Of a stretch of 20,000 nt of DNA, positions 1 through 18,132 are shown piece by piece (position 1 is the stretch's first letter; every line of letters begins with the position of its first letter). The notes beneath the pieces are model-generated. The model was not told the origin of the DNA, did not search any database, and worked only from the letters and a program-made list of their open reading frames with translations. The translations under genes and the position numbers were made by a program. The DNA comes from Rhizaria sp. SCN 62-66 (taxonomy: Eukaryota), in the NCBI GenBank assembly GCA_001724265.1, contig MEDY01000123.1:56784-76783 (forward strand), in the 5' to 3' direction.

Positions 1-1580
1 TGCACGCGGCCGCCCTGGGGCGGGATCGACTGCGTCAGCGTCATGCCCAGCGTGTCCACCAGCTTGTTGTTGCCGGCGCCGTTGCTGCCACTGTTGTCGA
101 GCAGGCCTGCGCCGCTGGTGTTGGTGCCGACCGGGGACGCGAACGGGTCCTGGGTCGGGTCCCACGCGCTCGCCACCGCCACGGCCGCGGTATTGCCGGT
201 GGACTCGGCGTCCTTCGGTGCAGCGGGGTCCGCGGAGTAGGTGTCGTTGGCGTTGTGGGTGTCGTTGATGTCGATGTCGATGAAGTCCTCCGGAATGTCT
301 TCATCAATAGTAGCCTTGCCCGCCGCGGGCGCGGACTCGGGGCCAGCAGCGGCCGCACCGGGCTCGCCGTGCGCGACGGCGTCGTCCTCGTCGTCGTCGA
401 GCAGCGAGCGGCCCGAGGCCCCGAACGCCGACGACTGGCGCGAAGCACGGTTCTTGCCCCTGCGCCCGCCGACGCTCACAAATCCACCTGCGGCGGCCCC
501 GAAATCATCTTCCGCGTCCGCGCCTGCGTCGGCCTCTGCATCGGCCCCCGCCACGGCCTCAGAGACGGCCTCGGACCCGGAGCTGCCGGCGGCGGCGGGC
601 TTGGCGAGCGGGAGCAGCCCGCGCGAGGGGGGGAACGACGCAGCCGACGCCGCCACGACGGCAGCGCCAGAGTGGTCGTCGTCACGCGCGGTGACGCCGG
701 CGACGGCGGCCGCGAGCTCGGCGTCGTCGACGGTGGCCGCGCTGGCGTCGGGCTCGTCATGCGCGCTGCCGCTCGCAACCGCGGCCGCGTTGTCGGCGTT
801 CGCACTGCTGTTGGCGTTGGTGTTGCTGTTTGTGTTGGCGCTGGCGTTAGGGCGCGTGACCGAGACGGAGCGCGTGGTCGAGGGGCTGTGGCTGCCGGGG
901 GCCGAGGCGGAGCCGTTGGTGAGCCCCATCATCGCAATCCCGTGAACGGCCGTGATGATCTGCGTCAGTACGGGCGGCTCCTCCAGCGCGCTGGGTGCGA
1001 ACGTCTCCGCCTCGTTGCCGTTGCCGTCAGCAGCAGCAGTAGCGTCATCTGCGTTGGCACTCGCACTCGAGGGCTCGAGAAAGGAAAACTGTGGGACGAT
1101 GGCCTTGCGCTGCGTGAAGGCGTGGTTGGCGAGGTTGGCCTCGGTGACGAGCACGGACCAGGTGTGGTCGAGCTCGTACGCATCGCAGAAGTCCTTGATG
1201 AGCGAGAGCACCAGTTCGTCCATGGGCGACTCAAGCAGCCGCCGCTGCAGCTGCGTGCGTGGCGGGAACGGGCCGTTAATCGGGTCAAAGTCGGCGGTGT
1301 TAACTGCACGGTGGATCGAGGCGCGGATCTGTGCCTGTGTACAGGTGTGTGGTTGTGCGTGCAGAGGTGCGGGAGTGGGAACAGTGAGTGGAGTGGTGGC
1401 AAGAACTGACATGAACGGTTGAGAGTGAGGGGTAATAGTGACGTCAATGTCCGTCGCTAACCAAGTAGATATAAAAAGGTAATTGCCAGAAATAGCACGC
1501 ACCTTGATAGAAGACAGCACACCGAGATGGCCCAAGGATTCCACAACGAGTCCCTTGAGCTCGTCCCCGGTGTCGGCCAT
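1..1580 (-). CDS. CEP43: CEP43/FGFR1OP (FOP)-like centrosomal protein with N-terminal TOF/LisH region, 3'-partial; exons 1580-1503 and 1334->1 (runs off window)
   Basis: The spliced translation MADTGDELKGLVVESLGHLGVLSSIK|AQIRASIHRAV...LVLSLIKDFCDAYELDHTWSVLVTEA matches the FOP/FOR20/OFD1 N-terminal pattern (ELxxLVxxxLExxGVLxxIKAQLRAxV plus LisH). Phase-0 intron 1502-1335 (GTGCGT...ACACAG). Exon 2 stays open to the window edge, so it is absent from the ORF track, and has an Ala/Asp-rich low-complexity tail. The length favours FOP over the short FOR20. Confidence 0.75.
   Translation of the reverse strand, partial: MADTGDELKGLVVESLGHLGVLSSIKVRAISGNYLFISTWLATDIDVTITPHSQPFMSVLATTPLTVPTPAPLHAQPHTCTQAQIRASIHRAVNTADFDPINGPFPPRTQLQRRLLESPMDELVLSLIKDFCDAYELDHTWSVLVTEANLANHAFTQRKAIVPQFSFLEPSSASANADDATAAADGNGNEAETFAPSALEEPPVLTQIITAVHGIAMMGLTNGSASAPGSHSPSTTRSVSVTRPNASANTNSNTNANSSANADNAAAVASGSAHDEPDASAATVDDAELAAAVAGVTARDDDHSGAAVVAASAASFPPSRGLLPLAKPAAAGSSGSEAVSEAVAGADAEADAGADAEDDFGAAAGGFVSVGGRRGKNRASRQSSAFGASGRSLLDDDEDDAVAHGEPGAAAAGPESAPAAGKATIDEDIPEDFIDIDINDTHNANDTYSADPAAPKDAESTGNTAAVAVASAWDPTQDPFASPVGTNTSGAGLLDNSGSNGAGNNKLVDTLGMTLTQSIPPQGGRV
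1335..1502 (-). other. Spliceosomal intron (168 nt) in the CEP43-like gene
   Basis: AAG|GTGCGT...TACACAG|GCA; splicing joins SSIK to AQIRAS in frame. Confidence 0.85.
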
Positions 1581-2093
1581 CGGTAGAGTCCTGCGGATAC
1601 AAGCGGGAATACAAATCGTAGAGATGTGTAAATAAGGAAATCAGTACAACACAGCAGACTAATCCGCAGAGGGTTAATAGTATAACAATAGAACGAATAA
1701 ATACCCTCGATATTTCAAACCGTTGGAGCGTGCTCTACGTCTCGAGCTACAACGGCTCGTTCATCTTCGCGCTGCCCTAGAGCAGGTTCCTAAAAATCCG
1801 GTAGAAGGACGGCAATAGCCACAATGGCCTTGCGCTTTTTCTCATTAACTCCACATTCATTCGATGGATGATTATGTGACAGTTCTAGTTCATTTTACAT
1901 ATGTCGCATTTATTAAGTCCAATTAGCTAAATCTTACATATACCTATTATAGCTTCCCGTCGGCCCCCCCCTTGGAGCCTCTCTAACTCTCGTCTTCTCG
2001 TTCTTCTCTTACCGCACCCGCACCGTTGCTCACTCTCTGTCTTGCTGAAACCCCACTCATTGTGAACCCCTGTCTTTGCATTTGCAGCTTGTG

Positions 2094-3327
2094 ATGCCTG
2101 TTGATCCCAACGCTCCTCGCAAGGCCAAGACGACCAAGGGCCAGCGCGTGCTGGACAACCGCGCGCCGAAGCTGACGGAGAACGAGAAGAAGTGCATCTT
2201 CGTCCGCGGCCAGACGTGCTCGGACCTCATCTCCAAGTCCATGACGGACCTCTGCGCGCTCAAGAAGCCTGAGTCGAAGATGCTGTCGAACAAGAACCCG
2301 ATCCGCCCCTTCGAGGACGCGACTTCGCTCGAGTTCCTGACGCGCGTCAACGACTCGTCGCTCTTCTGCTTCGGCTCCCACTCCAAGAAGCGCCCGCACT
2401 CGCTCGTCTTCGGCCGCACTTTCGACTTCCAGATCCTGGACATGCTCGAGTTCCAGATCGACCCCTCGACGTTCAAGACGATGCAGGACCTGTCGAAGGA
2501 CCGCGAGACGACGTCGCGCATCGGCGCCAAGCCGCTCTTCGTCTTCATCGGCGACCAGTTCACGCACGCCGAGGACATGCGCACCTTCCGCTCGCTGCTG
2601 CTCGACATGTTCCACGGCATCGACGTCTCCAAGACCAACCTTGCCGGGCTCGACCGCGTGATCATCATCACCGCCACGGTCAACCCCTCGGACATCACCA
2701 AGAAGGTCGTCTACTTCCGCCACTACAACGTACGTCACTACGCTTTGCTTTCTTTCGAGAGTGTTTGCACGTGTTTAATCGGATATATCATGTCATTGAT
2801 ATATTAACATGCCAAAAATTCATATAACGTACGACAACATTATCATTTCTCACATCTTGCTCCTTGAACTCTAATATTTTGTTACGCTTGCATCTACACT
2901 TGCACAGGTGCTGAAGAAGAAGTCCGGCACGCGCTTCCCCCGCGTCGAGCTGGAGGAGGTGGGCCCGCGCATGGACCTGACCTTCAACCGCTCCTCGTCG
3001 GGCTCGCTGGAGATCCGCAAGGAGGCGCTGCGCGTGGGCAAGGGCGCCACGATGGCCAAGCGCAAGAACGTCGAGATTGGCCAGATGGGCCAGCTGCTCG
3101 GCCGCGTCCACATGCAGAAGCAGAACCTGGACGAGATCGCGCTGGCCAAGCTCAAGGGTCTGGGTAAGCGCGTCAACACGGGGGCCAAGCGCACGCTGCC
3201 GCGCGACGCGCCCGAGCCCGGCGCGCAGCTCTCGGACGACTGGAAGGTCGTCGCCGGCGACGCGCAGAGCAAGAAGCGCTCGCGCATGCTGCCCGCCGCA
3301 TACGCCAACTCTGTCATCTCGGAGTAA
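2094..3327 (+). CDS. RPF2: Ribosome production factor 2 (Brix domain); exons 2094-2729 and 2908-3327, about 351 aa, stop TAA
   Basis: Diagnostic motifs: KAKTTKGQRVLDNRAPKLTENEK, NPIRPFEDATSLEFL, SLFCFGSHSKKRPHSLVFGRTFDFQILDMLE, FRHYN|VLKKKSGTRFPRVELEEVGPRMDL, GRVHMQKQNLDEIALAKLKGL. Confidence 0.96.
2730..2907 (+). other. Spliceosomal intron (178 nt) in RPF2
   Basis: AAC|GTACGT...CTAAT...TGCACAG|GTG, AT-rich, phase 0, restores the Brix C-terminal motif. Confidence 0.92.
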
Positions 3328-4087: not shown

Positions 4088-6259
4088 ATGTTGCACCCTG
4101 CAGGCTCGGCCGTTGCCTCCAGTCCGGTCCCGGAGCTGTCCCCGTCGTCGTCCTCGCACAGCCACGCTGACCCCGACGTGGCCGCCGCCGCCGCCGCGAA
4201 CGCTGACGCCGTCGCTGCGAGCACGGTGATCCCCGCGTTGCCCGCGTCGGTGTCGGAGACGACTGAGACGGCTGCCGTGAAGCTTGTGCACAGTCTATCG
4301 CTGTCCCGCCACAACAGCAACGCGTACGCGCACAGCCACAGCCACGGCCCGAGCCACACGTCGTCAAGCGCCAATCTGAGCAGCAACGGCAACTACGCTG
4401 CCGACGCTATTGGCGCCAGCGGTGGTGTGCACAGCGCCTACGCCCACGCTAACGCTGGCGTTGGCGGCCCTATTGCTGAAGCGTACGGCGGCAACGACAC
4501 GGACGCCGAGTCCACTGACGGCCACACGGTCACCGTCACCTCGGACGACCCCAGTCTCGCTGCGGCCGATGCCGCCGACAGCGCGGACGGGGCCGGTCTG
4601 AGCGGCGAGCACAAGCCGATGCCGCCGGACTTAGCATCGCACGTTGTGCTGCTCAAGGTGCTGTACTTTCTGCAGGGCATGTCCGCGGCGTCGTGGGGCC
4701 GCTTTGGCACGATTTACTACCTCTCGCGCGGGCTCACGCGGTTCGAGATCGGCATCATTGAGGGGCTCATCCCGTCGATCACGATGTTCGCGTCGCCGAT
4801 CTGGGGCATCGTTGCCGACAAGCTGCACTCGCGCAAGAAGGTCGCGCTCTTCACGCAGTCAGTCTCGGTCTGCATCCTCTGTCTGCTCGCGTTTCCCGCG
4901 CTGGCGAGCGGCTTCGAGTCGATCCTGGCCATCTCGATGCTCATGGCCGCATTCGTGTCCTCGGGCATCCTCGACGCGCACACGCTCGACGTGTTGGGCA
5001 AGGATTACTTCTACGCCTACGGGCCGATCCGCATGTGGACCTCAATCTCGTGGGGCATCGGCGCGCTTTTCCTGGGCTTCCTCACAGACTCCTTCTCAGT
5101 CTACTCCATCTTTGTCGTCTATGCTATCCTCGCCACCACCTCGATCGTGGCCACATCGCGCGTTGTGCCCGAGCAGACGCACAACGAGGCGCGCCGCGCC
5201 GTGGGGCCGCCACCGCAGCTCTCGGCGCTTTTCCGGGCACTCACGCGCCCGCGCATGCTCTTCTTCCTGTTCTAGATCGCGCTCTTTGGCGCCGGCATGG
5301 CCGTTGTTGAGCGGCTGCTCTTCATCTACCTGCGCGACGACCTGGGCGCCAGCAACTTCCTCTGCGGGCTCACCGTTACCGTCACGGTTATCTTCGAGCT
5401 GCCTATCTTCATGTACGCCGACCAGCTGCTCAAGCTCTTCGGGCACCATGGCATGTTCTTGATCGCCATGGTCGCGCACACGGTCCGCGTTTTCCTCTAC
5501 ACGCTGCTCACGCGCGAAGCCGTCTACGCGATCCTGCCGATCGAGATCACGCACGGCATTACCTTCGCGTGTATGTGGACCGCGGCAGTCGAGTACGCCA
5601 AGATGGGCGTGCCCGAGGAGTGGTCCTCAGCCGCGCAGTCGATCCTCGCCGCCACGCTCGGCTGCGTCGGCGCGGGCGTCGGCTCCATTCTTGGCGGATA
5701 CGTCATGGACCGCTACGGCGCCATCGCGCTCTACACGGGCACCGGCATCATCGGGCTCTGCACCATCGCCATGCACCTCGCCTTCCACCTCGTCACCAAG
5801 ATCATCGACGAGGGCGCCGCCGACGGCCGCCACAGCGGCGGCGCGGGCGCGGGCGAGCTCGACGACGGCGTCACACTCGACGGCATCGACGTTACGATAA
5901 GCGGCAGCGCCAGCCCCGCTGCCGCCGACGGGGTGGGCGTGTCCAGGGCCGCCGCATTCGCGGTCGCCGAGACCATTGACGGCGGGGGCAGCGGCGGCGG
6001 TGTCGGCGCTGGCGGCGGGGTCCGCGAGCAGGTGCCTGTCGGACTGGCCGCGGCACCCGCTGCTAGCGGCTACAGCAAGTACAACGACGACAACGACGAC
6101 GACGGCGACGACGCGGCGGCGCGGTACAATGCACAGCACCAACAGCAGCGGCAACAGCAACAGCAGCAGCAGCAGCGGCAGCGGCGCACTGCGGGCGGCG
6201 CCGTGGAGATGGGCAGAGTGGGTGGGTACCGCAGCTAGTACGTGGCCGGAAGCAAGTGA
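4088..6259 (+). CDS. MFS transporter (MFSD6/MFS_1_like) with long low-complexity termini; single frame with in-frame TAG at 5273-5275 and 6236-6238, ending at TGA 6257-6259 if TAG is sense (about 723 aa)
   Basis: ORFs 4088-5275 and 5297-6238 are in the same frame and form the N- and C-halves of a 12-TM MFS. Motifs: LKVLYFLQG, GLTRFEIGII, SPIWGIVADK, YGPIRMWTSISWG, FELPIFMYADQLLKLFG, EITHGITFACMWTAAVEY, GAGVGSILGGYVMDRYG. GC3-rich codon usage continues across the TAG. Confidence 0.85.
6134..6181 (+). repeat. CAG/CAA poly-glutamine tract in the MFS C-terminal tail
   Basis: cag cac caa cag cag cgg caa cag caa cag cag cag cag cag cgg cag. Confidence 0.85.
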
Positions 6260-6610: not shown

Positions 6611-9459
6611 TCAGAGTTTTTCGCTTTCAAGACGGACAAAATTAATGCTCGACGGATAACATCCTGTGCACGAAGCGTAACGTTCTGCGCACGAGCGAAC
6701 CGCATCGAATTGCGTAGCTAAAATCGAGTCAAATGACCTATAATCTTGTGGGGATGCATCATGAGCGTACCGCGCGGTTCCAACAGGTACTGCACCAGGG
6801 ATCGTGCTTGCGTTCATCGGATAAAACACGATAAAGAAAAGACTAGAAAGAGTGTTCGCGCGGGGAAACACGGTGAATGGTGACACAAGCACGGTACCGG
6901 GTGGGTACACCGTGTCCCTAGCCGGTGCCTTGTGCTCGCCAAACACAGTGTCCTTTAGGATACGGCCGAGAAACGCACCATCTTCGCAATGGTTGCAAAT
7001 TACCGCGAATGGAGTTGTTGAACGACTTGTTTCTGACGTTCGGATACATGTATGTAGCGATGTGCCAAGCGCTCGATTTGATGCTGCATTCCGGAAGTGG
7101 GCAGCGTGACAAGGAAACTTTACATCGTCAAGGCGAATCCGCAGATGAAAGTGAAAAGTGCCCGCGTGGCTCTGCAAATTGATACTCATTGTGACATCGC
7201 GATAAACAAGGCAGAGTGTGCGCGCATGAGCAATAATGTGATTGCGCGCCCTCCTCTGGAAAGTCTTCAATGCATACTCCGTCATTGCATCTTCAGAGCG
7301 CGCTATCAGATCGGCAAGCGGGAGAGTTGTTCGTGAAAATCTTTGCGCCTTGAGACTTTGCACAAGATGAGATTCAAAAACGCGCTGCCATAGATTTTGC
7401 CAAAAGTAGTTCACAAATGCCAAGCTCTCAGCATCAAACATCTGGAACGCGCGCGATTGCTGAAAAACATCCGGAAACGAAAAGGTGCATCGGGCATGCA
7501 CAGCACGGCCGCAACTGCTCTTCGTTTCGCATGGATCGTTTTTCGCAGCGGCGCTATCAGAAAGTTCAACGAATCGTCCAATTACAAAGACTGTCGTGCG
7601 CTTCGAGGAGTCACAGAGCCACAAAGACGATGAAACAGTGCTCGCAGTTGCAGGCAAAGTCACAGTCTCAGTAACACCACGTGTTTCAGCTCCGCTGTGA
7701 GTCTGAACAGTGTTATCGTGTTGCCCGGTCGAAGGTGAAGATAGTTCAAAGGTCACGTTAACGCGACCGAACGTGAAACATTCGTTCTCACGTTTATACT
7801 GCACAGCAGCATCAATTTGCGGCAATGACGAAGATGAAACCGCTGCTTCGTCAGCCTGCGATGGCGATGATGAATGCACACTTGTGACGATCCTGGTGAA
7901 AGTGTTTACGCTCGAGTTCGCGTTGTTCATCCCAGCCTCAGACTCGCTGTTCAAGTCATCATCGGTGTAAAACTCAATCAACTCCTGAACAACAGTGTCA
8001 CGCGCCCCAATCTTGTCATAGCTGGCTGCAAGGTTATCGTCCATGCTCGCTTCGACTTCACACACAAGAGCACAATCACATGGGACGGCAGCGACAATGC
8101 TTGCATCAGAAACCCCCTCGACAGCGGTGTGAGGTTGATCCTCCGCAGCGACAGAAATCATTGGTGACTTCCCACATCCGCAGCCGCGGCGGACACGGCA
8201 CTCAAACGTCACCCCGCATAGCTCGGCAACACCCAGCTCAACCGGCGCTGCGCTAGGAACCAGAGCTGAAAGCGGCACGTCGCCCTCGCAAACAACCTCG
8301 CGAGGGGCAAGTGCAGCTGCCGCGTCCGCAAGCGCGCTCTCAAGAGCGGCGCGCGCGGCCGTCCAGCGCTCTCGACCCACAGCAAGCGGGGGGTCGACGC
8401 GCGCGGGCCAGCCAGGGCTCGCGGCGGCAAGTGCGGAGAGCTCGGGGATGGTGGGCGCGGCGACCGAGGCCGCGATCGCGGCGAGTTCCTTGCGCGCGGC
8501 CGCAAGGCCGGTCTGCTCGCGGGCCGCAGACCGGGAGGCGTACGCGGAGGCACGAGAGAGAAGCGCGGCGAGCGGGCCCATGGCGTCTGCGGCGAGCGTT
8601 TCCGCGCGGACCTGTGTCAATGCGAGCAGGGCGGTTGAGTCACGCTGCAACTGCGCCATGGACTCCGTTTGGTCCTTGATAAAAGTTAAAAACAAATTGT
8701 GAAAAAGAAGCGCAAGATATGAGTCAGTCTTCAGGATTAATCTCCATTTCGATAAACTATAACTGTCGATTTTAAGCTATGTCGAGACACGTACGTTGAT
8801 TTTGCGTTCGAAGTTGTCGAGTTGCGGCGGCAGCTGCGCGGCACGGCTCTTGATCTCAGCATCAACGTCGACAATCATGCGGCATTTGTGGCCGAGGTGC
8901 TACGCGTTGAGTACTGCGCACTGGTGGCAAACAGGGGTGATGCAATCGCTGCACCAGTTAAGGAAGAGCACTGGGGTCGCGTGCGAGTGGCAATACTGAA
9001 TAAAGCATCACGGAAACACATGTCATGTAAGCGCGGATTGGAAACTCTTCAGGTTATTCATAGGTTGGGGTAAACAGCATTTCGGAATACGTTGCGAGAC
9101 GTACGTTGATGTCGTCGGAGGCAATTGCCGTAGTGTTGGGCTGGCTAGCAGCAATCACAGCTGCTGCAGCAGGAGCAACTGGCACTGTCGGTGTTGGTGT
9201 TGTGGTATCAGAGACAGGCGCATGGGTCTGACTCTCAGCCTGAGAGGTGTAATTAATTACATTACAGCCAGATACATTGAGTATTATGGGATGAGAGATT
9301 AGCCTGGAAATGTGATGAATGCAGTACAGACCAGAGATCTGGGGCGAAGCGAAGAGGCATACGTACAGCAAAGCAAGCTGCGCAAATTCGACCGTTCGAT
9401 GCGGCGCCCGTCATATGCGCACCACAAAACAAACACTTCTTGACCAGAACTGTCGACAT
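6611..9459 (-). CDS. Zn-finger + B-box + coiled-coil (TRIM-like) protein with unknown C-terminal region; exons 9459-9367, 9239-9105, 8995-8795 and 8674-6611; in-frame TAG at 8902-8900; about 830 aa; stop TGA
   Basis: Exon 1 has CLFC...CAAC. Exon 3 reads YCHSHATPVLFLNWCSDCITPVCHQCAVLNA*HLGHKC, the B-box2 pattern C-x2-H...C-x2-C-x4-C-x2-C-x6-H-x2-H. A helical/coiled-coil segment follows (EIKSRAAQLPPQLDNFERKIN|DQTESMAQLQRDS). Three phase-0 introns all start GTACGT. Confidence 0.78.
8675..8794 (-). other. Intron 3 (120 nt) of the B-box gene
   Basis: ATCAAC|GTACGT...TTTTTAACTTTTATCAAG|GAC, AT-rich, phase 0, joins the 6611-8695 ORF frame. Confidence 0.78.
8996..9104 (-). other. Intron 2 (109 nt) of the B-box gene
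   Basis: ATCAAC|GTACGT...CTTTATTCAG|TAT TGC CAC, phase 0. Confidence 0.82.
9240..9366 (-). other. Intron 1 (127 nt) of the B-box gene
   Basis: GCT|GTACGT...CTCTCAG|GCT, phase 0. Confidence 0.75.
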
Positions 9460-10143: not shown

Positions 10144-12514
10144 TCAAATATCGTCATCACTGTCCGCAGCAACTGCGTCCGCGCGTACGCTCGCGGCGCG
10201 CGCGGCCCTCTCTTCGATTGCACGCAACGCGGCGTCCAGCGCAGCGTCGCTGTCAACGGGAGGCTTAGCTTTCTGATCAAGAGGGGCGTCGTCGTCGTCG
10301 CTTGCATCGTTGTGATCATCGCCATGCACCTCGTTGCCGTTGCCATCGCCAGAGGCACGCTCGGCCTGACTCACCGAGTCGGTGGGGGCGCTGGAGCTGT
10401 CGGGGTGCTGTGTTGCACTCGCACGCGCAGTGCTGATGTCGGACTTGCTGTCTTGCTGCGATTCAAGCCAGTCACCAAACGCCTTTAGCCGCTGCTCCTC
10501 CCCCTCGTTCTCGTTCTCGACCTTGTAGTTCGTCTTGCCGTCGAAATACACACAGCGCAGCCGGCGCAGCGGCTTCGCTACAACGCCATGACTCGCACCA
10601 GTAGCACTGCCCTCGGTCGAGTTTGCCGTCGCGCGCACGTCTGTGTTAGCGTCATCTGTGAAAATAATGTCGTCATTCGTGTTTCCAGTGATCGTCGACA
10701 CCACCTTATTGTTCAGCAGACGAATGCACGCCGCAGCCGCGTGTCCCGTGCGGAACTGGATCACGACGGGGCCCTCGAAGTTGCCCGGAAACACGGTGAG
10801 CTTGGCCACCGCGCCGCACTTGGCCTCGACCAGCGCCCGCACGCGCGCGCGCACGCCCTCGTAGTACGCCGCGGCGTCGCCGCTCGCCACTGCGACGTCA
10901 GGCGAGTACGCGTTCAGCAGCGAAATAATGCGGGGGCCCGGGCCAGCACTGCCAGCGCCGCCGGCGCCAGCACCGGCCGCACCGCCCTCGGCGGCGCTGC
11001 CGCTGCTGTCGGTGTTGTACGTCGTCGCGTCGTCGCCGCCGCCGCCCCACGACAGCGCCTGTGCCTGTGCGCGCGCGGCCAGCGACTTCTGCTGCCGCTT
11101 CATCACGAGCGCGGGCGCTCCGGAAGCGTTGTTCGCAGTGGCGTCAGTCACCGTTGCAGAGCCGGCGGGGCGGGCCCGCTTCGCTGCGCTGTCAATGTCG
11201 CCGTCCGCGCTCGCGCTCGCAGCGGTCCCCGTGTGTGCGTGGTCGTTGGCATCAACGGGGACGGACTTAGCGCTGAACTGCGCCCTGCACACAGCGACGG
11301 TGTATCCGGGCGCAAACTCGCGGCCGTCGAGAAAGCTCACCGCAAGGTCGACCGACTCGGCCTTGGCGTAAAAGACGAGCGCCTCGCCCTTAAGCTGGCC
11401 GGCTCGCTCGTGGCCGGCGCGGTGGCGGTAGAGCTTGATGCGCGGCAGCCCCAGCTCGTCAACCTTAAGCACGCCCGCGCGCGCCGCAAAGTCGGCCACG
11501 GCTTCGGGCATCAGCTCGTCGCCGTCCTCGCCCACCACCGGCAGCCCGGTGATGAAGACCGTCGTCTTGCCCTGTGTCGCCGACAGCAGCACTTTGTTCT
11601 GTTCGTTGTGGTTGCCTGCATCCGCGTTGCTGTCGCTGTTGCTCGGGCCGGCGCCGGCAGTCTGCGCTGTGCGCTTGCGGAGGCGCGACTCGCGGTTGCG
11701 CTCGCGCTTGGCGAGCTGCTCGGGGGTGAGGTCGGCGTCGGCCACACCGCGGCCGGCGGCGACGGCGGGCATGCCACCTGCACCGCCGCCGCTGGCGCCG
11801 CTAGAAGAGACTGCAATCGACGCATCTGTCGTCGCATTGGGCATGCTGGAAGAGCCGGACGCCTGTGCAGCAGCAGTGTTCGAAGCGCTAGGGCCAGCAG
11901 CGTGGAGTGCAACTGGGTCAACAGCTGCAGCTGGGGCAGGAGCAGTGATTTGGGGGTGTGAGCTGTACGGCTTCCAACCTGCATAAAGCAACGAATCAGA
12001 AGTGAGTTCAAAAATATATGCAAGTGTTAGTCGTATAAAATGAAAAATAATGTGCAAAACAGTTGGTTTTCTTCTTATTAGACTTGACATGAGGGAAGAA
12101 GTGCGAAGTAGTTGCGTCAGTATCGAGTTGGTTGTTGTAAGACGTACCGACAACAGCCTTTGTCCAAACCAGAGTCTCATCTCCAATCATCCCCGCGGCG
12201 CGGAATCCCTTTATGTCGTCGCGTGCAAACGGTCCCTGCTTAATGCGCATGGAATCCATGTAAAACCAGGGCTCTGCACCGACGGCAGACAGCGCGCTAA
12301 GCATGGGCGTCAGGTCTGCGATCGTGGTGAGAGCGGCCCAGTCTGCAAGTCCGTTGCGCCAGCAGTACGTCTCTTGAGTGACCTCGCCAGACGCAAAGAA
12401 CCACAGAAGATCTGTGCCGCTAACGGGGCCGCGCTGTGTCTTGCGCGAGTCGAAGAAGTGCCACACGATGGCCTCGGCGGGCACAGTTGCAACCGAGGGT
12501 ATCTCCGCGGACAT
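10144..12514 (-). CDS. HTATSF1: U2 snRNP-associated splicing factor Tat-SF1/CUS2 homolog with two N-terminal GYF_2 domains; exons 12514-12148 and 11978-10144, about 733 aa, stop TGA
   Basis: RRM1: TTVFITGLP...AGVLKVDELGLPRIKLYR...GQLKGEALVFYAKAESVDLAVSFLDG...RAQF. UHM: IISLLNAYSP...CGAVAKLTVF...EGPVVIQF...AAACIRLLNN, then YFDGKTNY and EEQRLKAFGDWLE. GYF_2: WHFFD...QRGPVS...ETYCWRNGLADW and WFYMD...QGPF...DETLVWTKAVV|GWKP. Confidence 0.9.
11979..12147 (-). other. Spliceosomal intron (169 nt) in the Tat-SF1 gene
   Basis: GTC G|GTACGT...TTTATGCAG|GT TGG, phase 1, completes the GYF_2 motif VW....GWKP. Confidence 0.9.
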
Positions 12515-12828
12515 CTGCAGGAGAAGAATAGTGTTGTAAGAGAAATGAAAAAAGGGAATGGAAATTCATGAGCATATTACATTCGGATATAGTGCATGTT
12601 TGCGGTTTAACGGATGGTGGCGCTCTTGCAATTAGATTTCTTGGATGATTCATGTGTCGCCAGATGTGAAGTGAATAACAGCTTTTGTGGTGAAAGGACA
12701 TTGGTGATAATCTAACATCCCACCCAATCATCAGCGGGGTGAAATCAAAAATTGGTGGATGTATTAAGTATGTAACAATAATAAAATAGAGCTATAAAGC
12801 TAAATCGGATCTATCCTAGATGGAAATC

Positions 12829-15200
12829 TCACCACTGCGCTTGCTGCACCGCGTTACTGACAACAGTGCGCTGCAGCGCAGAGCGTTGCGTACTCTGCAT
12901 CTGCACCTGCGAATTAGGCTTATCACAATCACCGCGGCTACCACACATTGCTGCACTCTTAGTCGTCCGGTCAATACCGTGGTTATCGCGCGCGCGCCGT
13001 TGTGTGGCCGACCTCTTGACGCTGCTACGCGACTGTGTCTGCGCAGTATCAGAGGTGCGACTATTTGTGACAGTAGAGTATGAATGCGGCATCAGCGCGT
13101 CCACAGGCAGCCCAAGCGCCCTCGCAACAGCCTCCGCGGCGCCGCCCTCGGCCCTGACGCTCTGAGCGCCGGTCTTCGCAGACTCGGCGGCGACGGAACC
13201 AGTCTTGGCACCTATGCCCCGCGCACTAGCAGCAGCCCTGCTCGTGTGACTGAAGCCACCGTTTGCGGCGTTGATGCTGTGGGCGCGCGAGGCCGCTGGA
13301 AACGCGGCGCCGCCGCGGGCAGACGACGGCCTCCGCGCGCGCGTCTGCATCAGAGCGGTGTGCAGCCCGTCAGCGATGCCGGACTGACTGTGGCCAAGAT
13401 TGTGACCATGAGAGTGAGCAGCGGCTGCAGTGCCGACAGACTGGCTAAAAGCAAACCCGTCAGTGTGGCCGTGGAGATGGGCGTTGGTGGGGACGCTCAC
13501 GCCCCCAACGCTCCACCCTTCCTCTGCAGCAAACTGGCCGTGATCGTGGCCGCGACCGTGGGCAAACGCGGCGCTCATCGACGCGAAACCGTGACCGAGA
13601 GCTGCAGTGCGGCCGCCCATTGGCGCAGACAGAGTCGTCGACAGCGGCACAGACAGCGGAGACCAGGCCTCCGTCGCCGCACTCGTCTCGCTCGCCTCGT
13701 CCTTGCCCATGTGTCCCATGTGGCCCCGGTGCGAGCGACCGTGCGCGCCTGCACCGGAGTGACCGTGGGCCGCGTCGGCAGCGACTTGCGCGGCGAGCGC
13801 GCGCTCCGAGGCCGTGGGGCGCGCGCCGCCACGCGCGGACCGGGCGAGGTCGAAGCTGCGGCCGTTGAGCCGGCCCAGCGCATGTGCGGCCGCGGCGAGG
13901 CGGGCCGGAACGACGACGCCGCCGCCGAGTCGAGGGTGTGCAGCGTGCGCGCAAACTGCTGCTGCTCGTGCTGTTGCTTCTGCTGCCCGCACTCGCTTGA
14001 GCTAGCGGCCAAGGCGGTGCTGTGAAAACTGCGACTTGTCGCAATGCTGCTGTTGTTGACAATGGTGCTAAGGGCTGCAGAAAGCTGGCCTGTCGCGGAC
14101 AGTTGGGCCGCGGCTGCGGCCAGCGGCGCCTGCGGCCTCCACAGCAGCGGCGGCTCGGTCTGGCCCGTGACGAGGCTTAACTTCGAGACGGCGACACCGG
14201 TGCCCGCGTTGCTGACCTGCGCAAACGCGACGGACCGCGCGGAGGTCCAGTAGTCCTTATGTCCTGCGCCGGTGCCACTCTGGTCAGCACCCCCCGCCCC
14301 CGCGAGCGCGCAGAGCCCCACAGTGGAGGCAGCTTGCTGTGCGAAAGCGGCCGCGGCGGCGCGTTTGGCGGCCTTGTCGGCGGCCTCCGCGGCGGCACGT
14401 GCACGCGCGGCCTGCGCGGCGGCGGCGGCGGGCGTGGCGAGGCGCAGCGGCGCGCCGGCGGCAAGCGCGGGCACGGCGGGCCCGTCGGCCGTGCGCGGCG
14501 GCGGGTCGCGGTACGGCTCCGCGGCCGAGGACAGCAGCGGCGCGACGTAGGCCCCCGCCAGCGTCCGCGTGCGGTCCAGCGGCGCGCACGTCGCGGGACG
14601 GTGGTGCCGGCGCATGCCCTGCGCGCGCGCGGCGGCGTGCACAGCAGCGGGGCTCACAGCGGCGGCGTCCGTGGATAGGGGGTCTGCGACTGTGAGGGGT
14701 GGGCGGGAGAGGCGCACGGCTGCCTCGATGCGCTCGCGCTCGGTCTTGGGCCCGAAGCTCAGCGAGAGCTGCATCTCCATCTCGCGGATGCGCGGGCGGA
14801 AGTCCGGGACGGCGACCGGCGGCACCCAAGGGTCCGCTGCTGCAGTGACGTGCGCGGGTTGTGCAGACGAGGATGTCGAGGACGATAGAGACGTCGAGGC
14901 GACGAACGCAGTCGCAGGGCGCGCGGGTCCAAAAGCCGACTTACCCAGCGCGGATGCAACGTGAAAGTTCATCGGGTGCGGGTGCTGTGGGGCATCCACA
15001 GGAGCGTCTTCGGCTGCGGCAGCGGTAGAGGCGGAGGCGAGCTGCTCAATGCGCGTTGCCGCGGAGGGGGCGACGTCGTGGAGCCACTTCTCGACGCGTG
15101 CATAGCTCCGCAACGCCAAAGCATCACGCGAAGGGGAAGAACATGTCGCAGACCGAGCTGTACCGCGGCCCGGGTAGGCCGGAGGACTGGAGGGGAGCAT
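12829..15200 (-). CDS. Hypothetical Ala/His-rich protein (about 790 aa) with an apparent 1-nt frame switch near 13896
   Basis: Coding-like GC3 bias lies in the 13575-15269 frame down to about 13896 and then moves to the 12829-13992 frame. Likely start is ATG 15200, downstream of TTCACAG. Stop is TGA 12831-12829. No family recognised. Confidence 0.6.
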
Positions 15201-15748
15201 CCGAGAGACGACGGAAAAGGGTGCGAGAAACGGCTGTGAAGTGAGGAGAAACATAAAATCAGGGTTCAATAGGTGTGTGTGAGCCGTTTACAGGATTCGA
15301 TCAGTCCCATCCATGATGAGAACATCAAGTAATTGTACGTGTCTCGCGAACAAGCGAAGTCAATATGGCTGAAGAGCGCTGTAATCGATTGAAGGTGGGA
15401 TGATGGACGGAGACTGGATCAAGAGAGATGTCGTCGAAGATGCTCAAAAACAGTGCTGGAAAACAGCGTTCCCATCGGAGGATAGACATGTAGTAAAGCA
15501 CTAGAAGGAATCAGTCATAGGAATAATATAATCTATTTTTCACATTACGGGAAAGTGTCTATGTCTCGCACAGTACTTCATCTCAAGATCACCGCACCGC
15601 CGCGCAGTTGACCGTTTACGATTCACTTGTGGTCATCGAACTTGTTCTTTGGATATCACGTCTAAACAGTCACAACAATGAACATCTATGCACTATATTT
15701 CACTTACAAGTTAATTTCTTTGCATTCTCGTGTTTTTAATTTCATAGG

Positions 15749-18132
15749 ATGTCCAAGGCGTCTCTCCTGAGTGCGTTTATGGACGACGCCGAGAGCGACG
15801 AAGAGCAGTCGCAGCAGCAGTCACAGCAGCTCTCCGGCGTCCCTACGGTCAAGCCTGAGGGTGTCACATCGAACTATGATACTAACATTGGCCCAACTAT
15901 TGCCCCAGCGTTCTTCAGTGGTACGATCGGTCCGGCTGCAGCTCCTACAGCTTCGTCCTCCTCTTGTGCCAACGGTCACAACACGAGCGCGAACGTTTCG
16001 GCCGTGACCGCGATCATCGAGAGCCCCGAGTTCGTGGCCCTGCTGGCGGACCTTGACGCTGCCGATGCTGCTGACGCCGAGGCTGCGGCCGCGCTGGCTG
16101 CCGCAGAGATGGCCAAGCTCGACTCCCGTATCCCGGGCCTCCACGGCAGCAACGCCAATAAAGACTCCTCGGACTCGAGCTCGAGCAGTGACTCCGACTC
16201 CGACTCCAGCAGTGACAGCAGCGACAGTGACGACGACAAGCCGCACCGGATCCCGCTCCCGCCCGCGACCGCCTCTGCGGCGGCGGCCTCGGCGCTGGTC
16301 TCCCGCGCCAACGCCCAGCTGCGCCGGCTCGACGATGAGCTGGCCGTGGTGCACCGCGCGCTCCAGGCCGCCTTGCGCCCGCTGCACCCCGAGCTGGAGG
16401 CGCTGGTGACAGAGCCCGACGCGTTCGCGCGCACGGTCATTGCGCTGCTCCGCCGCGACCTCGCCGCCGTCGCCAACAGCGCCGCTGCAATTACCAGCAG
16501 TGACAGCGGCGTGAAGTCAGATGGCGCAAGTGCCGAGGCCGAGGCCGCTGCGGAGGCACTGGCGCGCGCGGCCGCGAACCCGGCGATCTCTGGCACGGGC
16601 GCTGGCAAGCTGCAGACTGAGCTCGAGACCTTCCTTCCGTCTTCGGTCGCGCTCGTCGTCGCCGTTACCGCGGCCGCCTCGGCCTCCACCTCGGCGCTCC
16701 TGCAGAACAACAGCGGCGGCACTGACGGCGCCGTGAACGGTGCAGCGGCGCCCGGCGGCAAGGTGGCCGCCGCGTCCTCGTTGTCTCCGCTGCCCGCGTT
16801 TAACCTTGCACTCTCGCTGGCGACCGCGGCGGCGACGCGCACGCGGCTGCAGGCGCTGCTGTCTTCGCGCCTGGCCGCCGTGGCGCCCAACCTCACGGCA
16901 CTGCTGGGCGGGCCGCTGGCAGCGTCGTTGGTTGCGCTTACGGGCTCGGTCCGCGCCCTCGCGCTGGTGCCGTCGTGCAACATCCAGGTGCTCGGCGCCC
17001 GCCGCGGCGCGCTCGTGGGCACCTCCGCGGCCAGCGCCGACCTGCACACCGGTGTCATCGGCGGCGCCGCGCTGCTCGAGGGCGTGCCGAAGCAGGTGTA
17101 CCGGCGCGCGGTGCGGCAAGTTGCCGCCAAAACTGCGCTCGCGGCGCGCGTGGACGCTGCGGGGACGTGCGCCAGCGGTGACAGGGGCCGCGAGATGGCC
17201 GAGGACATCCGCGCGCGCGTGCGCCGCTGGCTGGCGCCGCCAGAGACGCGCAACATCAAGGCACTGCCGCGGCCGAACGAGGGGCCCAAGAAGAAGCGCG
17301 GCGGGCGCCGCTTCCGCAAGCAGAAGGAACGGACTCGGCAAACCACGCTCGCGAAACAAAAGAACCGACTCGCGTTCGGCGGCAGCGAGGTCGTGGACGA
17401 CTTCACCGGCGAGGGCATGGGCATGGTCGGCGCCGGCGGCGACGGCCTTGTCATTAAGGGGCTAGGCGGCGACGCGGGCGGCCAGCGCGTGCAGGACCAG
17501 CTATCGAAGAAGATGAAGGCCAGGTACGTGTGTTTAATGGCTAAAACGCAAAGATACAGTTGCGACCGGCGGTATACTATCTATTTTATATTTCTTCATG
17601 TTGGTCAATTGTTTGTTTACTCATTACTCTTTCGCTAGCTCACTTTCCCTTCGTTTTATCATTTCGTCATTGTTTACATGCACTAAACTACAGGTTGGCT
17701 GGTGGCAAGCAGCTGACTGGCGCGGCGGCCGTCTTTGGCACTGTCACTGGCACTGGCGGTGGCGCCAGCGCACTGCACGGCCAGGGCAACGCCGCCGCTG
17801 CCGCTGAGGTCGAGGAGGGGCCGACCTTCGTCATCCTCAAGGCTGCGCCAAGCACTGCCAACAACAACGCCTCCTCCGCGAGCGGCACTGCAATCACTGC
17901 AAGCGCTGCTGGTGCTAACAGGGACTACTTCGGTGTGGGCGTGAGCAGCAGCGTCGGCGCCGGCGTGCACGGGTCCTCCGACCACGGCCAGGGTCACAGC
18001 CAGGGCCAGGTCAAGCGCGCCGCCGGCGAGGCCGCCGCGGGGGCGGGCGCGGAGACGGAGGCCGAGGCGCGGGCGGCCGAGATGGCCGCGAAGCGCGCGC
18101 GCATCCTTGCGAATTCGAGCCTGTTCAAGTGA
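15749..18132 (+). CDS. PRPF31: U4/U6.U5 tri-snRNP protein Prp31; exons 15749-17523 and 17694-18132, about 737 aa, stop TGA
   Basis: NOSIC-like HPELEALV. Nop domain VAPNLTALLG...LALVPSCNIQVLGA...HTGVI...RRAVRQVAAKTALAARVD. NLS/C-terminus PPETRNIKALPRPNEGPKKKRGGRRFRKQKE...KQKNRLAFG. Confidence 0.93.
17524..17693 (+). other. Spliceosomal intron (170 nt) in PRP31
   Basis: AG|GTACGT...CACTAAACTACAG|G, AT-rich, phase 2, joins the 17560-18132 ORF frame. Confidence 0.88.

What the first reader, a model, noticed from the sequence alone, without database searches (positions are those of the whole stretch)
5273..5275. In-frame TAG inside the first TM helix of the MFS C-domain
...RALTRPRMLFFLF-TAG-IALFGAGMAVVERLLFIYL... 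The frame, the hydrophobic helix and the GC3-rich codon usage continue without a break. Termination here would leave a 6-TM half transporter, and restarting at ATG 5297 would cut the helix in half. There are no other lesions in 2.1 kb, so the gene does not look decayed.
Basis: partly seen in the sequence, partly recalled or inferred. Interest (0 to 1): 0.75.

Follow-up and report, generated by a model that had tools for sequence, protein, structure and literature searches.

The report
Protist reads UAG stop as glutamate
The stop codon in the middle of this transporter gene is probably not a lesion: this uncultured wastewater protist appears to read UAG as an amino acid, most likely glutamate, while keeping UAA and UGA as stops, a nuclear genetic code we could not find described.

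Summary
The TAG at 5273-5275 is real. It is in frame, mid-helix, and is carried unspliced and unedited by contigs of three runs, one of them polyA RNA. It is one case of a genome-wide pattern in a 35-Mb protist, probably a rhizarian. Exonic TAGs also interrupt eRF1 itself, UBE2J1 and five kinases. Apparent gene ends use TAA or TGA (TAG: 0 of 44 strict, 1 of 49 and 5 of 59 relaxed). A nuclear tRNA gene with a CUA anticodon has a tRNA-Glu-type body. The 72%-identical orthologue has GAG at the finding's codon, and 26 of 29 homologues have Glu. A seven-site likelihood test ranks Glu first (Gln -13, Leu -17 lnL). Best reading: UAG = Glu as a rare sense codon, with UAA and UGA as stops. UAG-only reassignments in print are to Leu, Gln and Ser; Glu was found only together with a reassigned UAA. 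Weak points: few informative sites, some TAGs at Gln positions, an eRF1 that may still read UAG, and no proteomics.

The parts
5273..5275 (+). In-frame TAG, codon 396 from ATG 4088; inferred to be read as Glu; lies in the first helix of the MFS C-domain
4088..6259 (+). Intronless MFS_1_like (MFSD6-like) transporter CDS, 723 aa if both TAGs are read and TGA 6257-6259 ends it; the start codon is not verified
   Evidence: fold closest to NupG, LacY and YegT
4649..5734 (+). MFS domain, one Pfam PF12832 match across the TAG
   Evidence: E 3.8e-59, model 3-371
5249..5341 (+). Predicted helix (residues 204-234 of the modelled piece) that holds the TAG codon
6236..6238 (+). Second in-frame TAG in the low-complexity tail; sense or terminator not settled
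6257..6259 (+). TGA, the inferred true stop
   Evidence: inference from genome-wide stop usage
3325..3327 (+). TAA ending the neighbouring Rpf2/Brix gene: an in-window example of a retained stop

Best explanation
This nucleus uses a variant code: UAG is a rare sense codon for glutamate, and UAA and UGA terminate. SHOWN: the TAG is genomic and is unchanged in an RNA-library contig; exonic TAGs recur in unrelated conserved genes; TAG is nearly absent from apparent gene ends; a tRNA gene with anticodon CUA lies among nuclear genes. INFERRED: that tRNA has a tRNA-Glu body, is charged by glutamyl-tRNA synthetase and decodes UAG only (CUA does not pair with UAA), so ribosomes put Glu mid-helix and make the whole 12-helix transporter. 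One gene copy of the tRNA was found, which would make UAG slow and so rare. UAG was probably first lost from gene ends and then captured. How eRF1 is kept off UAG is not shown.
For: (1) Kinase scan: 14 of 142 matches held stops and 13 were read. Of 9 TAG-only matches, 5 are exonic and 4 are intron acceptors; in the 4 read matches with TAA/TGA these lay in intron-like inserts. (2) eRF1, the only eRF1 among 3 PF03463 matches, has an exonic TAG at about residue 107; stopping there would remove its M and C domains. UBE2J1 has one too. (3) First stop after strong coding with no splice donor: non-coding sequence follows in 22 of 24 TAA, 22 of 27 TGA and 0 of 9 TAG; relaxed settings give TAG 1 of 11 and 5 of 19. 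(4) tRNA-CUA at C84: 1 of 8 pattern hits, found by ARAGORN, Rfam 58 bits over the full model, followed by a T-run, next to an FH2-domain ORF. Identities over 73 nt: E. coli tRNA-Glu 51, own Glu(CTC) 47, own Gln 33 and 29; its acceptor stem begins and ends like both own Glu tRNAs; 8 of 8 listed E. coli matches are annotated tRNA-Glu. (5) Columns: MFS E26 Q2 C1 of 29 and GAG in the 72% orthologue; eRF1 E106 D10 V1 Q0 of 117; UBE2J1 D36 N27 H16 T16 S15 E8 G2 Q0 of 120. (6) Site likelihoods summed over 7 sites, LG+G4: Glu best, Asp -6.4, Ala -8.4, Gln -13.1, Leu -16.9, Trp -35.5; same winner under LG+C20.
Against: Only 7 sites could be tested, and Glu is the single best residue at only 1 of 7 (LG+G4) or 2 of 7 (LG+C20). 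Without the MFS site the lead shrinks to 1.6 lnL over Asp and 2.4 over Ala. The closest eRF1 relative has Val at the site. Two MFS homologues at 55% and 52% have Gln. TAGs occur at Gln positions: 2 of 2 in a ubiquitin/S74 repeat element, which was left out of the likelihood test, and inside polyQ tracts (3 of 40 sampled pattern hits; 1 more). The Glu-Glu-TAG-Glu-Glu pattern has 0 hits, though only about 260 five-Glu windows are expected genome-wide. Pfam bit scores did not separate Glu from Gln at 4 sites. The tRNA is divergent: pairwise it is as close to own tRNA-His (46) as to Glu(TTC) (46), its BLAST E-values are 0.1-7, and its unconstrained fold is not a cloverleaf. eRF1 keeps E55, L69 and Y125, and T32S is largely neutral in human eRF1 (PMC3632111, passages). 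The gene-end sample includes loci picked for holding TAG.
Confidence: 0.72

Rival explanations
1. Code in transition: the Glu-type tRNA-CUA competes with an eRF1 that still reads UAG, so UAG is a leaky codon (mostly Glu, partly termination). That keeps it rare in ORFs and lets the UAG in eRF1's own message act as feedback.
For: Exonic TAG is very rare: 5 in 142 kinase matches and 0 in about 14,000 dynein codons. One tRNA-CUA copy was found against 8 places for Glu(CTC). eRF1 keeps E55 and Y125, the residues tied to UAG reading. The relaxed test leaves 1-5 possible TAG ends. The MFS gene has a TAG near its end. eRF1 feedback through readthrough is known in plants, via the 3' UTR (PMC5397192, abstract).
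Against: No TAG among 44 strict gene ends. eRF1 carries T32S, G57S and L124M at columns invariant in 117 of 117 homologues. A TAG in a gene of eRF1's length could be chance (roughly 6% by my estimate from the kinase rate).
Confidence: 0.13
2. UAG = Gln (as in Iotanema), or a Glu/Gln mixture because glutaminyl-tRNA synthetase mischarges the amber tRNA.
For: TAGs at Gln positions in the ubiquitin/S74 element and in polyQ tracts; Gln in 3 of the 30 closest MFS homologues. Gln is the commonest outcome in eukaryotes (PMC11687900, passages). Mischarging of amber tRNAs with Gln is recalled, from no call.
Against: None of 7 conserved-domain columns is Gln-dominated; Gln is 0 of 117 in eRF1 and 0 of 120 in UBE2J1; summed lnL is -11 to -13. 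The tRNA body is least like own tRNA-Gln. In polyQ, TAG (1 of 544) is no commoner than non-synonymous interruptions and far below CAA (122), as expected of tolerated CAG-to-TAG mutations.
Confidence: 0.1
3. Standard code; the MFS gene is a recent nonsense allele or a split into two halves.
For: A public gene caller splits it into 395-aa and 313-aa proteins. Exonic TAGs are rare.
Against: The same would have to hold for eRF1, UBE2J1 and five kinases, always by TAG and never by TAA or TGA. It explains neither the tRNA-CUA nor the lack of TAG gene ends. The TAG is kept in a strain that differs at 5044.
Confidence: 0.03
4. Assembly error, an intron ending at this TAG, or RNA editing of UAG to UGG.
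For: The bases before the TAG are pyrimidine-rich, and TAG is a common acceptor here.
Against: Three runs show the TAG; the polyA contig spans it by 109 and 73 nt with no gap or change. The orthologue aligns without gaps. Trp is the worst residue in the likelihood test. Caveat: contigs only, depth 3-5, and an RNA library can hold DNA.
Confidence: 0.02

Closest known systems
Rhizarian exLh code, UAG = Leu (PMC5304391; abstract and sections 5, 6, 8, 9 read)
   Same: UAG sense, UAA and UGA stops; probably the same supergroup; UAG avoided in highly expressed genes
   Different: Residue is not Leu (-16.9 lnL); UAG is rare here but 384 in 71 genes there; eRF1 keeps L69; a tRNA-CUA gene is in hand here and was not there
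Iotanema spirale and Hartmannula/Trochilia, UAG = Gln (PMC5304391; PMC11687900, passages)
   Same: UAG alone reassigned; Iotanema eRF1 is also changed at T32 (T32G)
   Different: Glu-type tRNA body and acidic columns; T32S rather than T32G; unrelated lineage
Oligohymenophorea sp. PL0344, UAG = Glu and UAA = Lys (PMC10553269, passages)
   Same: UAG = Glu read by tRNA-CUA genes closest to tRNA-Glu
   Different: UAA is the main stop here; not a ciliate-type code; one tRNA-CUA found against ten
Peritrich ciliates and Blastocrithidia, UAR = Glu (PMC10553269 passages; PMC12153298 listing)
   Same: Glu at UAG
   Different: There UAA is Glu too, and Blastocrithidia also recodes UGA
MFS_1_like (PF12832, MFSD6-like) transporters
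   Same: Domain match and 12-helix fold, closest solved NupG, LacY, YegT
   Different: A near-invariant helix Glu (E212, at least 90% of 32 rows) is written as TAG; substrate unknown

Membership tests
UAG-only nuclear reassignments (UAA, UGA stay stops) | In-frame UAG in intact conserved genes | tested here: met
   MFS, eRF1, UBE2J1, 5 of 142 kinase matches
UAG-only nuclear reassignments (UAA, UGA stay stops) | UAA and UGA end genes and are absent from exons | tested here: met
   TAA/TGA intronic in the 4 kinase matches read, 1 further match not read
UAG-only nuclear reassignments (UAA, UGA stay stops) | UAG never terminates | tested here: inconclusive
   0 of 44, 1 of 49 and 5 of 59 apparent ends in about 0.9 of 34.9 Mb
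UAG-only nuclear reassignments (UAA, UGA stay stops) | tRNA gene with CUA anticodon | tested here: met
UAG-only nuclear reassignments (UAA, UGA stay stops) | No tRNA with UUA anticodon | not tested
   none among tRNAs seen in fetched loci, but no search for it was run
exLh code (UAG = Leu) | UAG at conserved Leu; Leu-type tRNA with long variable arm; eRF1 L69A | tested here: not met
Iotanema-type code (UAG = Gln) | UAG at conserved Gln; tRNA-Gln body | tested here: not met
   0 of 7 Gln-dominated columns; tRNA 33 and 29 of 73 to own Gln; Gln sites only in repeats
Glu codes of peritrichs, PL0344, Blastocrithidia | UAG at Glu columns with a Glu-type tRNA-CUA | tested here: met
   few sites
Glu codes of peritrichs, PL0344, Blastocrithidia | UAA also a sense codon | tested here: not met
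   TAA is a main terminator
Any reassigned code | Residue shown in protein | not testable with these tools
   needs proteomics
Pyrrolysine system (ARAGORN's label for the tRNA) | tRNA-Pyl body, PylRS and pylBCD | not tested
   the label follows the anticodon; the tRNA fits the ordinary tRNA model over its full length; no PylRS search was run
Rhizaria | Protein phylogeny | tested here: inconclusive
   Rpf2: the first two organism-named hits among 20 looked up are rhizarians, the third an opisthokont; a quick tree groups self with both rhizarians at SH-aLRT 88
Rhizaria | Polyubiquitin junction insertion | tested here: inconclusive
   no junction assembled; ubiquitin copies carry two extra N-terminal residues
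MFS_1_like PF12832 | Score over cut-off and 12-helix MFS fold | tested here: met

The most novel reading that the evidence does not exclude
A nuclear code caught mid-change. UAG has been cleared from gene ends and is being captured as Glu by one divergent tRNA-CUA whose D-arm and T-arm look bacterial, possibly acquired from outside. eRF1 still partly reads UAG, and the UAG inside eRF1's own coding sequence sets release-factor level by feedback, as the internal stop in bacterial RF2 does (recalled). If the lineage is close to exLh, related rhizarians have sent UAG to two different amino acids.
Probability: 0.2. Interest if true: 0.92.

Novelty: new variant of a known kind. Interest (0 to 1): 0.82.

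Why it matters
UAA and UAG nearly always change meaning together. The few uncoupled nuclear cases send UAG to Leu, Gln or Ser (PMC11687900, passages). UAG = Glu with UAA kept as stop would be a further code, in a supergroup where the papers found name one variant, and it comes with a genome, the decoding tRNA and an altered eRF1. Its rarity in ORFs and the standard-looking code of a 52%-identical relative suggest a young change, so codon capture and ambiguous-intermediate models become testable. An eRF1 that reads UAA and UGA but not UAG would be of use for amber-codon code expansion. In practice, gene callers split these genes, so low-frequency recodings like this are easy to miss.

Tried and rejected
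Intron, editing and assembly error: rejected. Leu, suggested by the hydrophobic helix and the Lygus-labelled hit: rejected. Gln was my first reading (note) and fell after the tRNA and column data. Pfam bit-score comparison of six readings at 4 sites: Glu and Gln within 0.6 bits, uninformative. PDB alignments for a CaMK-like kinase and UBE2J1: variable columns; one search was in the wrong frame. Dynein genes gave no exonic TAG; the 8 TAGs listed were acceptor, intronic or off-frame by my reading. A loose GC3 filter gave 540 candidates, mostly antisense shadows, and was dropped; its output was cut. Poly-Glu and poly-Gln pattern counts do not discriminate. No exact donor for the tRNA in viral or prokaryote collections (0 hits); exact patterns only, so this neither shows nor excludes transfer. 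Single-sequence fold was poor (pLDDT 41). The careful Rpf2 tree did not finish. Earlier findings: none. Origin of the Lygus-labelled protein P0003 was not established; it has no internal stop, which is odd for exLh. Supplements of the papers were not opened; eRF1 alignments there may bear on the T32S/G57S reading.

Full report
Observation. The window is part of contig C123 of a 34.9-Mb, 714-contig eukaryote assembly. TAG at 5273-5275 is in the frame of an MFS gene, and the frame continues after it. Pfam MFS_1_like is colinear across it. A model built from a 32-row alignment, with TAG read as Glu, has pLDDT 91 and puts the codon in helix 204-234; its nearest solved folds are NupG, LacY and YegT. 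A second TAG at 6236 precedes TGA 6257 by six sense codons.

It is not an error, intron or edit. Of 12 runs listed I laid 4. Contigs of X3 (DNA, possible source), X4 and X6 (polyA RNA; X4 and X6 are one other study) cover the codon with no other letter and no gap; X5 does not cover it. X4 and X6 differ from the window at 5044, so a slightly different strain shares the TAG. These are contigs at depth 3-5, and an RNA library may hold DNA. The nearest orthologue, L182, aligns without gaps over the domain.

It is genome-wide. Of 142 kinase matches, 14 held stops; I read 13. Nine held only TAG: five exonic, four intron acceptors. In the four read matches with TAA or TGA, those lay in intron-like inserts. 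eRF1, the only one among three PF03463 matches (the other two read as one pelota-like gene), has an exonic TAG near residue 107 and ends in TAA. UBE2J1 has one. Three of 40 sampled pattern hits are TAGs inside polyQ tracts of longer frames. Exonic TAG is rare: none in about 14,000 dynein codons.

TAG is nearly absent from gene ends. In about 0.9 Mb, with a codon model of my own, the first stop after strong coding sequence with no splice donor was followed by non-coding sequence in 22 of 24 TAA, 22 of 27 TGA and 0 of 9 TAG. Relaxed settings gave TAG 1 of 11 and 5 of 19, against 48 of 56 and 54 of 64 for the other two. The sample includes loci chosen for holding TAG, so the Fisher p-values (about 1e-6) are inflated. 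The share of apparent ends that are TAG (0 of 44, 1 of 49, 5 of 59) is less affected. The five relaxed cases look like frame-call errors by eye but were not checked. Eleven hand-picked ends were 9 TAA and 2 TGA, several of them ubiquitin paralogues.

The decoder. A pattern for CUA-anticodon tRNAs gave 8 hits; one is a tRNA by ARAGORN and Rfam (58 bits, full model), with a T-run behind it. It lies on C84 beside an FH2-domain ORF. The pattern would miss intron-bearing copies. Its acceptor stem begins and ends like both own tRNA-Glu genes and unlike the tRNA-Gln genes. Identities over 73 nt are E. coli tRNA-Glu 51, own Glu(CTC) 47, Glu(TTC) 40, His 40, Asp 39, Gln 33 and 29; a pairwise count tied His with Glu(TTC) at 46. 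All 8 listed E. coli matches are tRNA-Glu, as are the 10 annotated phage-collection matches covering at least 77%; shorter ones were Met, Arg or other; E-values are weak. The D-arm is close to the E. coli one, but no exact donor was found.

Which residue. At the finding's column, 26 of 29 homologues have Glu, 2 Gln, 1 Cys (6 of 35 hits dropped as self halves or partial). The 72% orthologue has GAG; a 52% relative has CAG and seems to end ORFs at TAG. eRF1: Glu 106, Asp 10, Val 1, Gln 0 of 117 (3 long hits dropped), the Val being the closest relative. UBE2J1: Asp 36, Asn 27, His 16, Thr 16, Ser 15, Glu 8, Gly 2, Gln 0 of 120. Site likelihoods on fixed trees (25-30 closest rows each), summed over these three sites and four kinase sites, rank Glu first: Asp -6.4, Ala -8.4, Gln -13.1, Leu -16.9 under LG+G4, and Gln -11.4 under LG+C20. 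Without MFS, Glu leads Asp by 1.6 only. Against Glu: both TAGs in a ubiquitin/S74 repeat element fall at Gln positions of their paralogous copies, and this element was not in the test; TAG also occurs in polyQ. I read these as tolerated CAG-to-TAG transitions in unconstrained sequence, since TAG is 1 of 544 polyQ interiors against 122 for CAA. That is inference.

Release factor. eRF1 has T32S, G57S and L124M at columns invariant in 117 of 117 homologues, and T58K shared with its closest relative, which keeps T32 and G57 (human numbering by motif offset). T32 contacts the third base of UAG and is Gly in Iotanema (PMC5304391, section 9). But T32S is largely neutral in human eRF1, and E55 and Y125, tied to UAG reading, are kept (PMC3632111, passages). 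Loss of UAG recognition is therefore not shown, which leaves room for a leaky code. The TAG in eRF1's own message could then be a feedback sensor; plants regulate eRF1 by readthrough in another way (PMC5397192, abstract). This is a hypothesis.

Lineage. For Rpf2 from this window, 3 of the top 20 relatives looked up carry organism names: Spongospora, Cercozoa sp. M6MM, then Capsaspora. A quick tree groups the query with both rhizarians at SH-aLRT 88. The third-best MFS hit is labelled Lygus hesperus, whose transcriptome is known to hold a sainouroid and a trypanosomatid (PMC5304391, section 5); its true source was not established. The 18S gene is divergent and interrupted. Rhizaria is likely, the subgroup open. 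Many dynein heavy chains suggest a flagellate. Holder runs are labelled bioreactor, wastewater and activated sludge.

Novelty. UAG-only nuclear reassignments in print are Leu (exLh, TARA phyllopharyngeans), Gln (Iotanema, Hartmannula, Trochilia) and Ser (Scotinosphaera); Glu appears with UAA = Glu or UAA = Lys (PMC11687900 and PMC10553269, passages). Seven searches for such a code listed no UAG = Glu with UAA as stop; the library lacks most subscription papers. Three recent rhizarian genome or transcriptome papers had no passage on a nuclear code change (term searches in PMC10770858, PMC12930898, PMC13746701). PMC4381064 was seen as passages only and added nothing on G57 or T58.

Verdict. UAG as a sense codon: about 0.95. 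Glu with full reassignment 0.72, Glu with residual termination 0.13, Gln or mixed 0.10. A new variant of a known kind; interest 0.82.

Noticed in passing
L086:1592-1594 minus strand (G000:C63, eRF1 exon 2): The release factor gene itself carries an exonic TAG in otherwise strongly biased codons, plus T32S, G57S, T58K and L124M; possible feedback element.
   Followed up: partly
L113:1489-1561 minus strand (G000:C84): tRNA with CUA anticodon; Glu-type acceptor stem, D-arm closer to E. coli tRNA-Glu than to the genome's own; origin unresolved.
   Followed up: partly
window 6611-8776 minus strand and L091:1-2088: Lower-GC ORF with no Pfam match that shares a domain (37% over 238 aa, E 3e-27) with a tandem-repeated unit fused to ubiquitin and a peptidase-S74 chaperone on C681; may be a mobile or virus-derived family.
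   Followed up: partly
L161:1501-5945 (G000:C706): 18S rRNA gene spread over 4,445 nt against a model of 1,831, so with several large insertions, and strongly divergent; whether it belongs to this organism was not tested.
   Followed up: no
L183:9314-11545 and 11596-17970: A relative (MFS 52% identical) seems to end ORFs at TAG, so the code change is probably limited to a sub-lineage.
   Followed up: partly
L089, L092, L093 ubiquitin ORFs: Ubiquitin copies start with two extra residues before the usual N-terminus; polyubiquitin junctions fall at contig ends.
   Followed up: no
window 4088-6259: The public protein collection holds this gene as two halves of 395 and 313 aa (P0002, P0005), an artefact of standard-code gene calling.
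   Followed up: yes
window 1-3327, 10144-12565, 15740-18132: Neighbours are ordinary eukaryote genes: FOP-domain protein, Rpf2/Brix, a GYF-domain gene and Prp31, with GT-AG introns.
   Followed up: no
L060 (G000:C520:1099-1761): Kinase match with 2 TGA and 1 TAA inside, the one stop-bearing match of 14 that I did not read.
   Followed up: no
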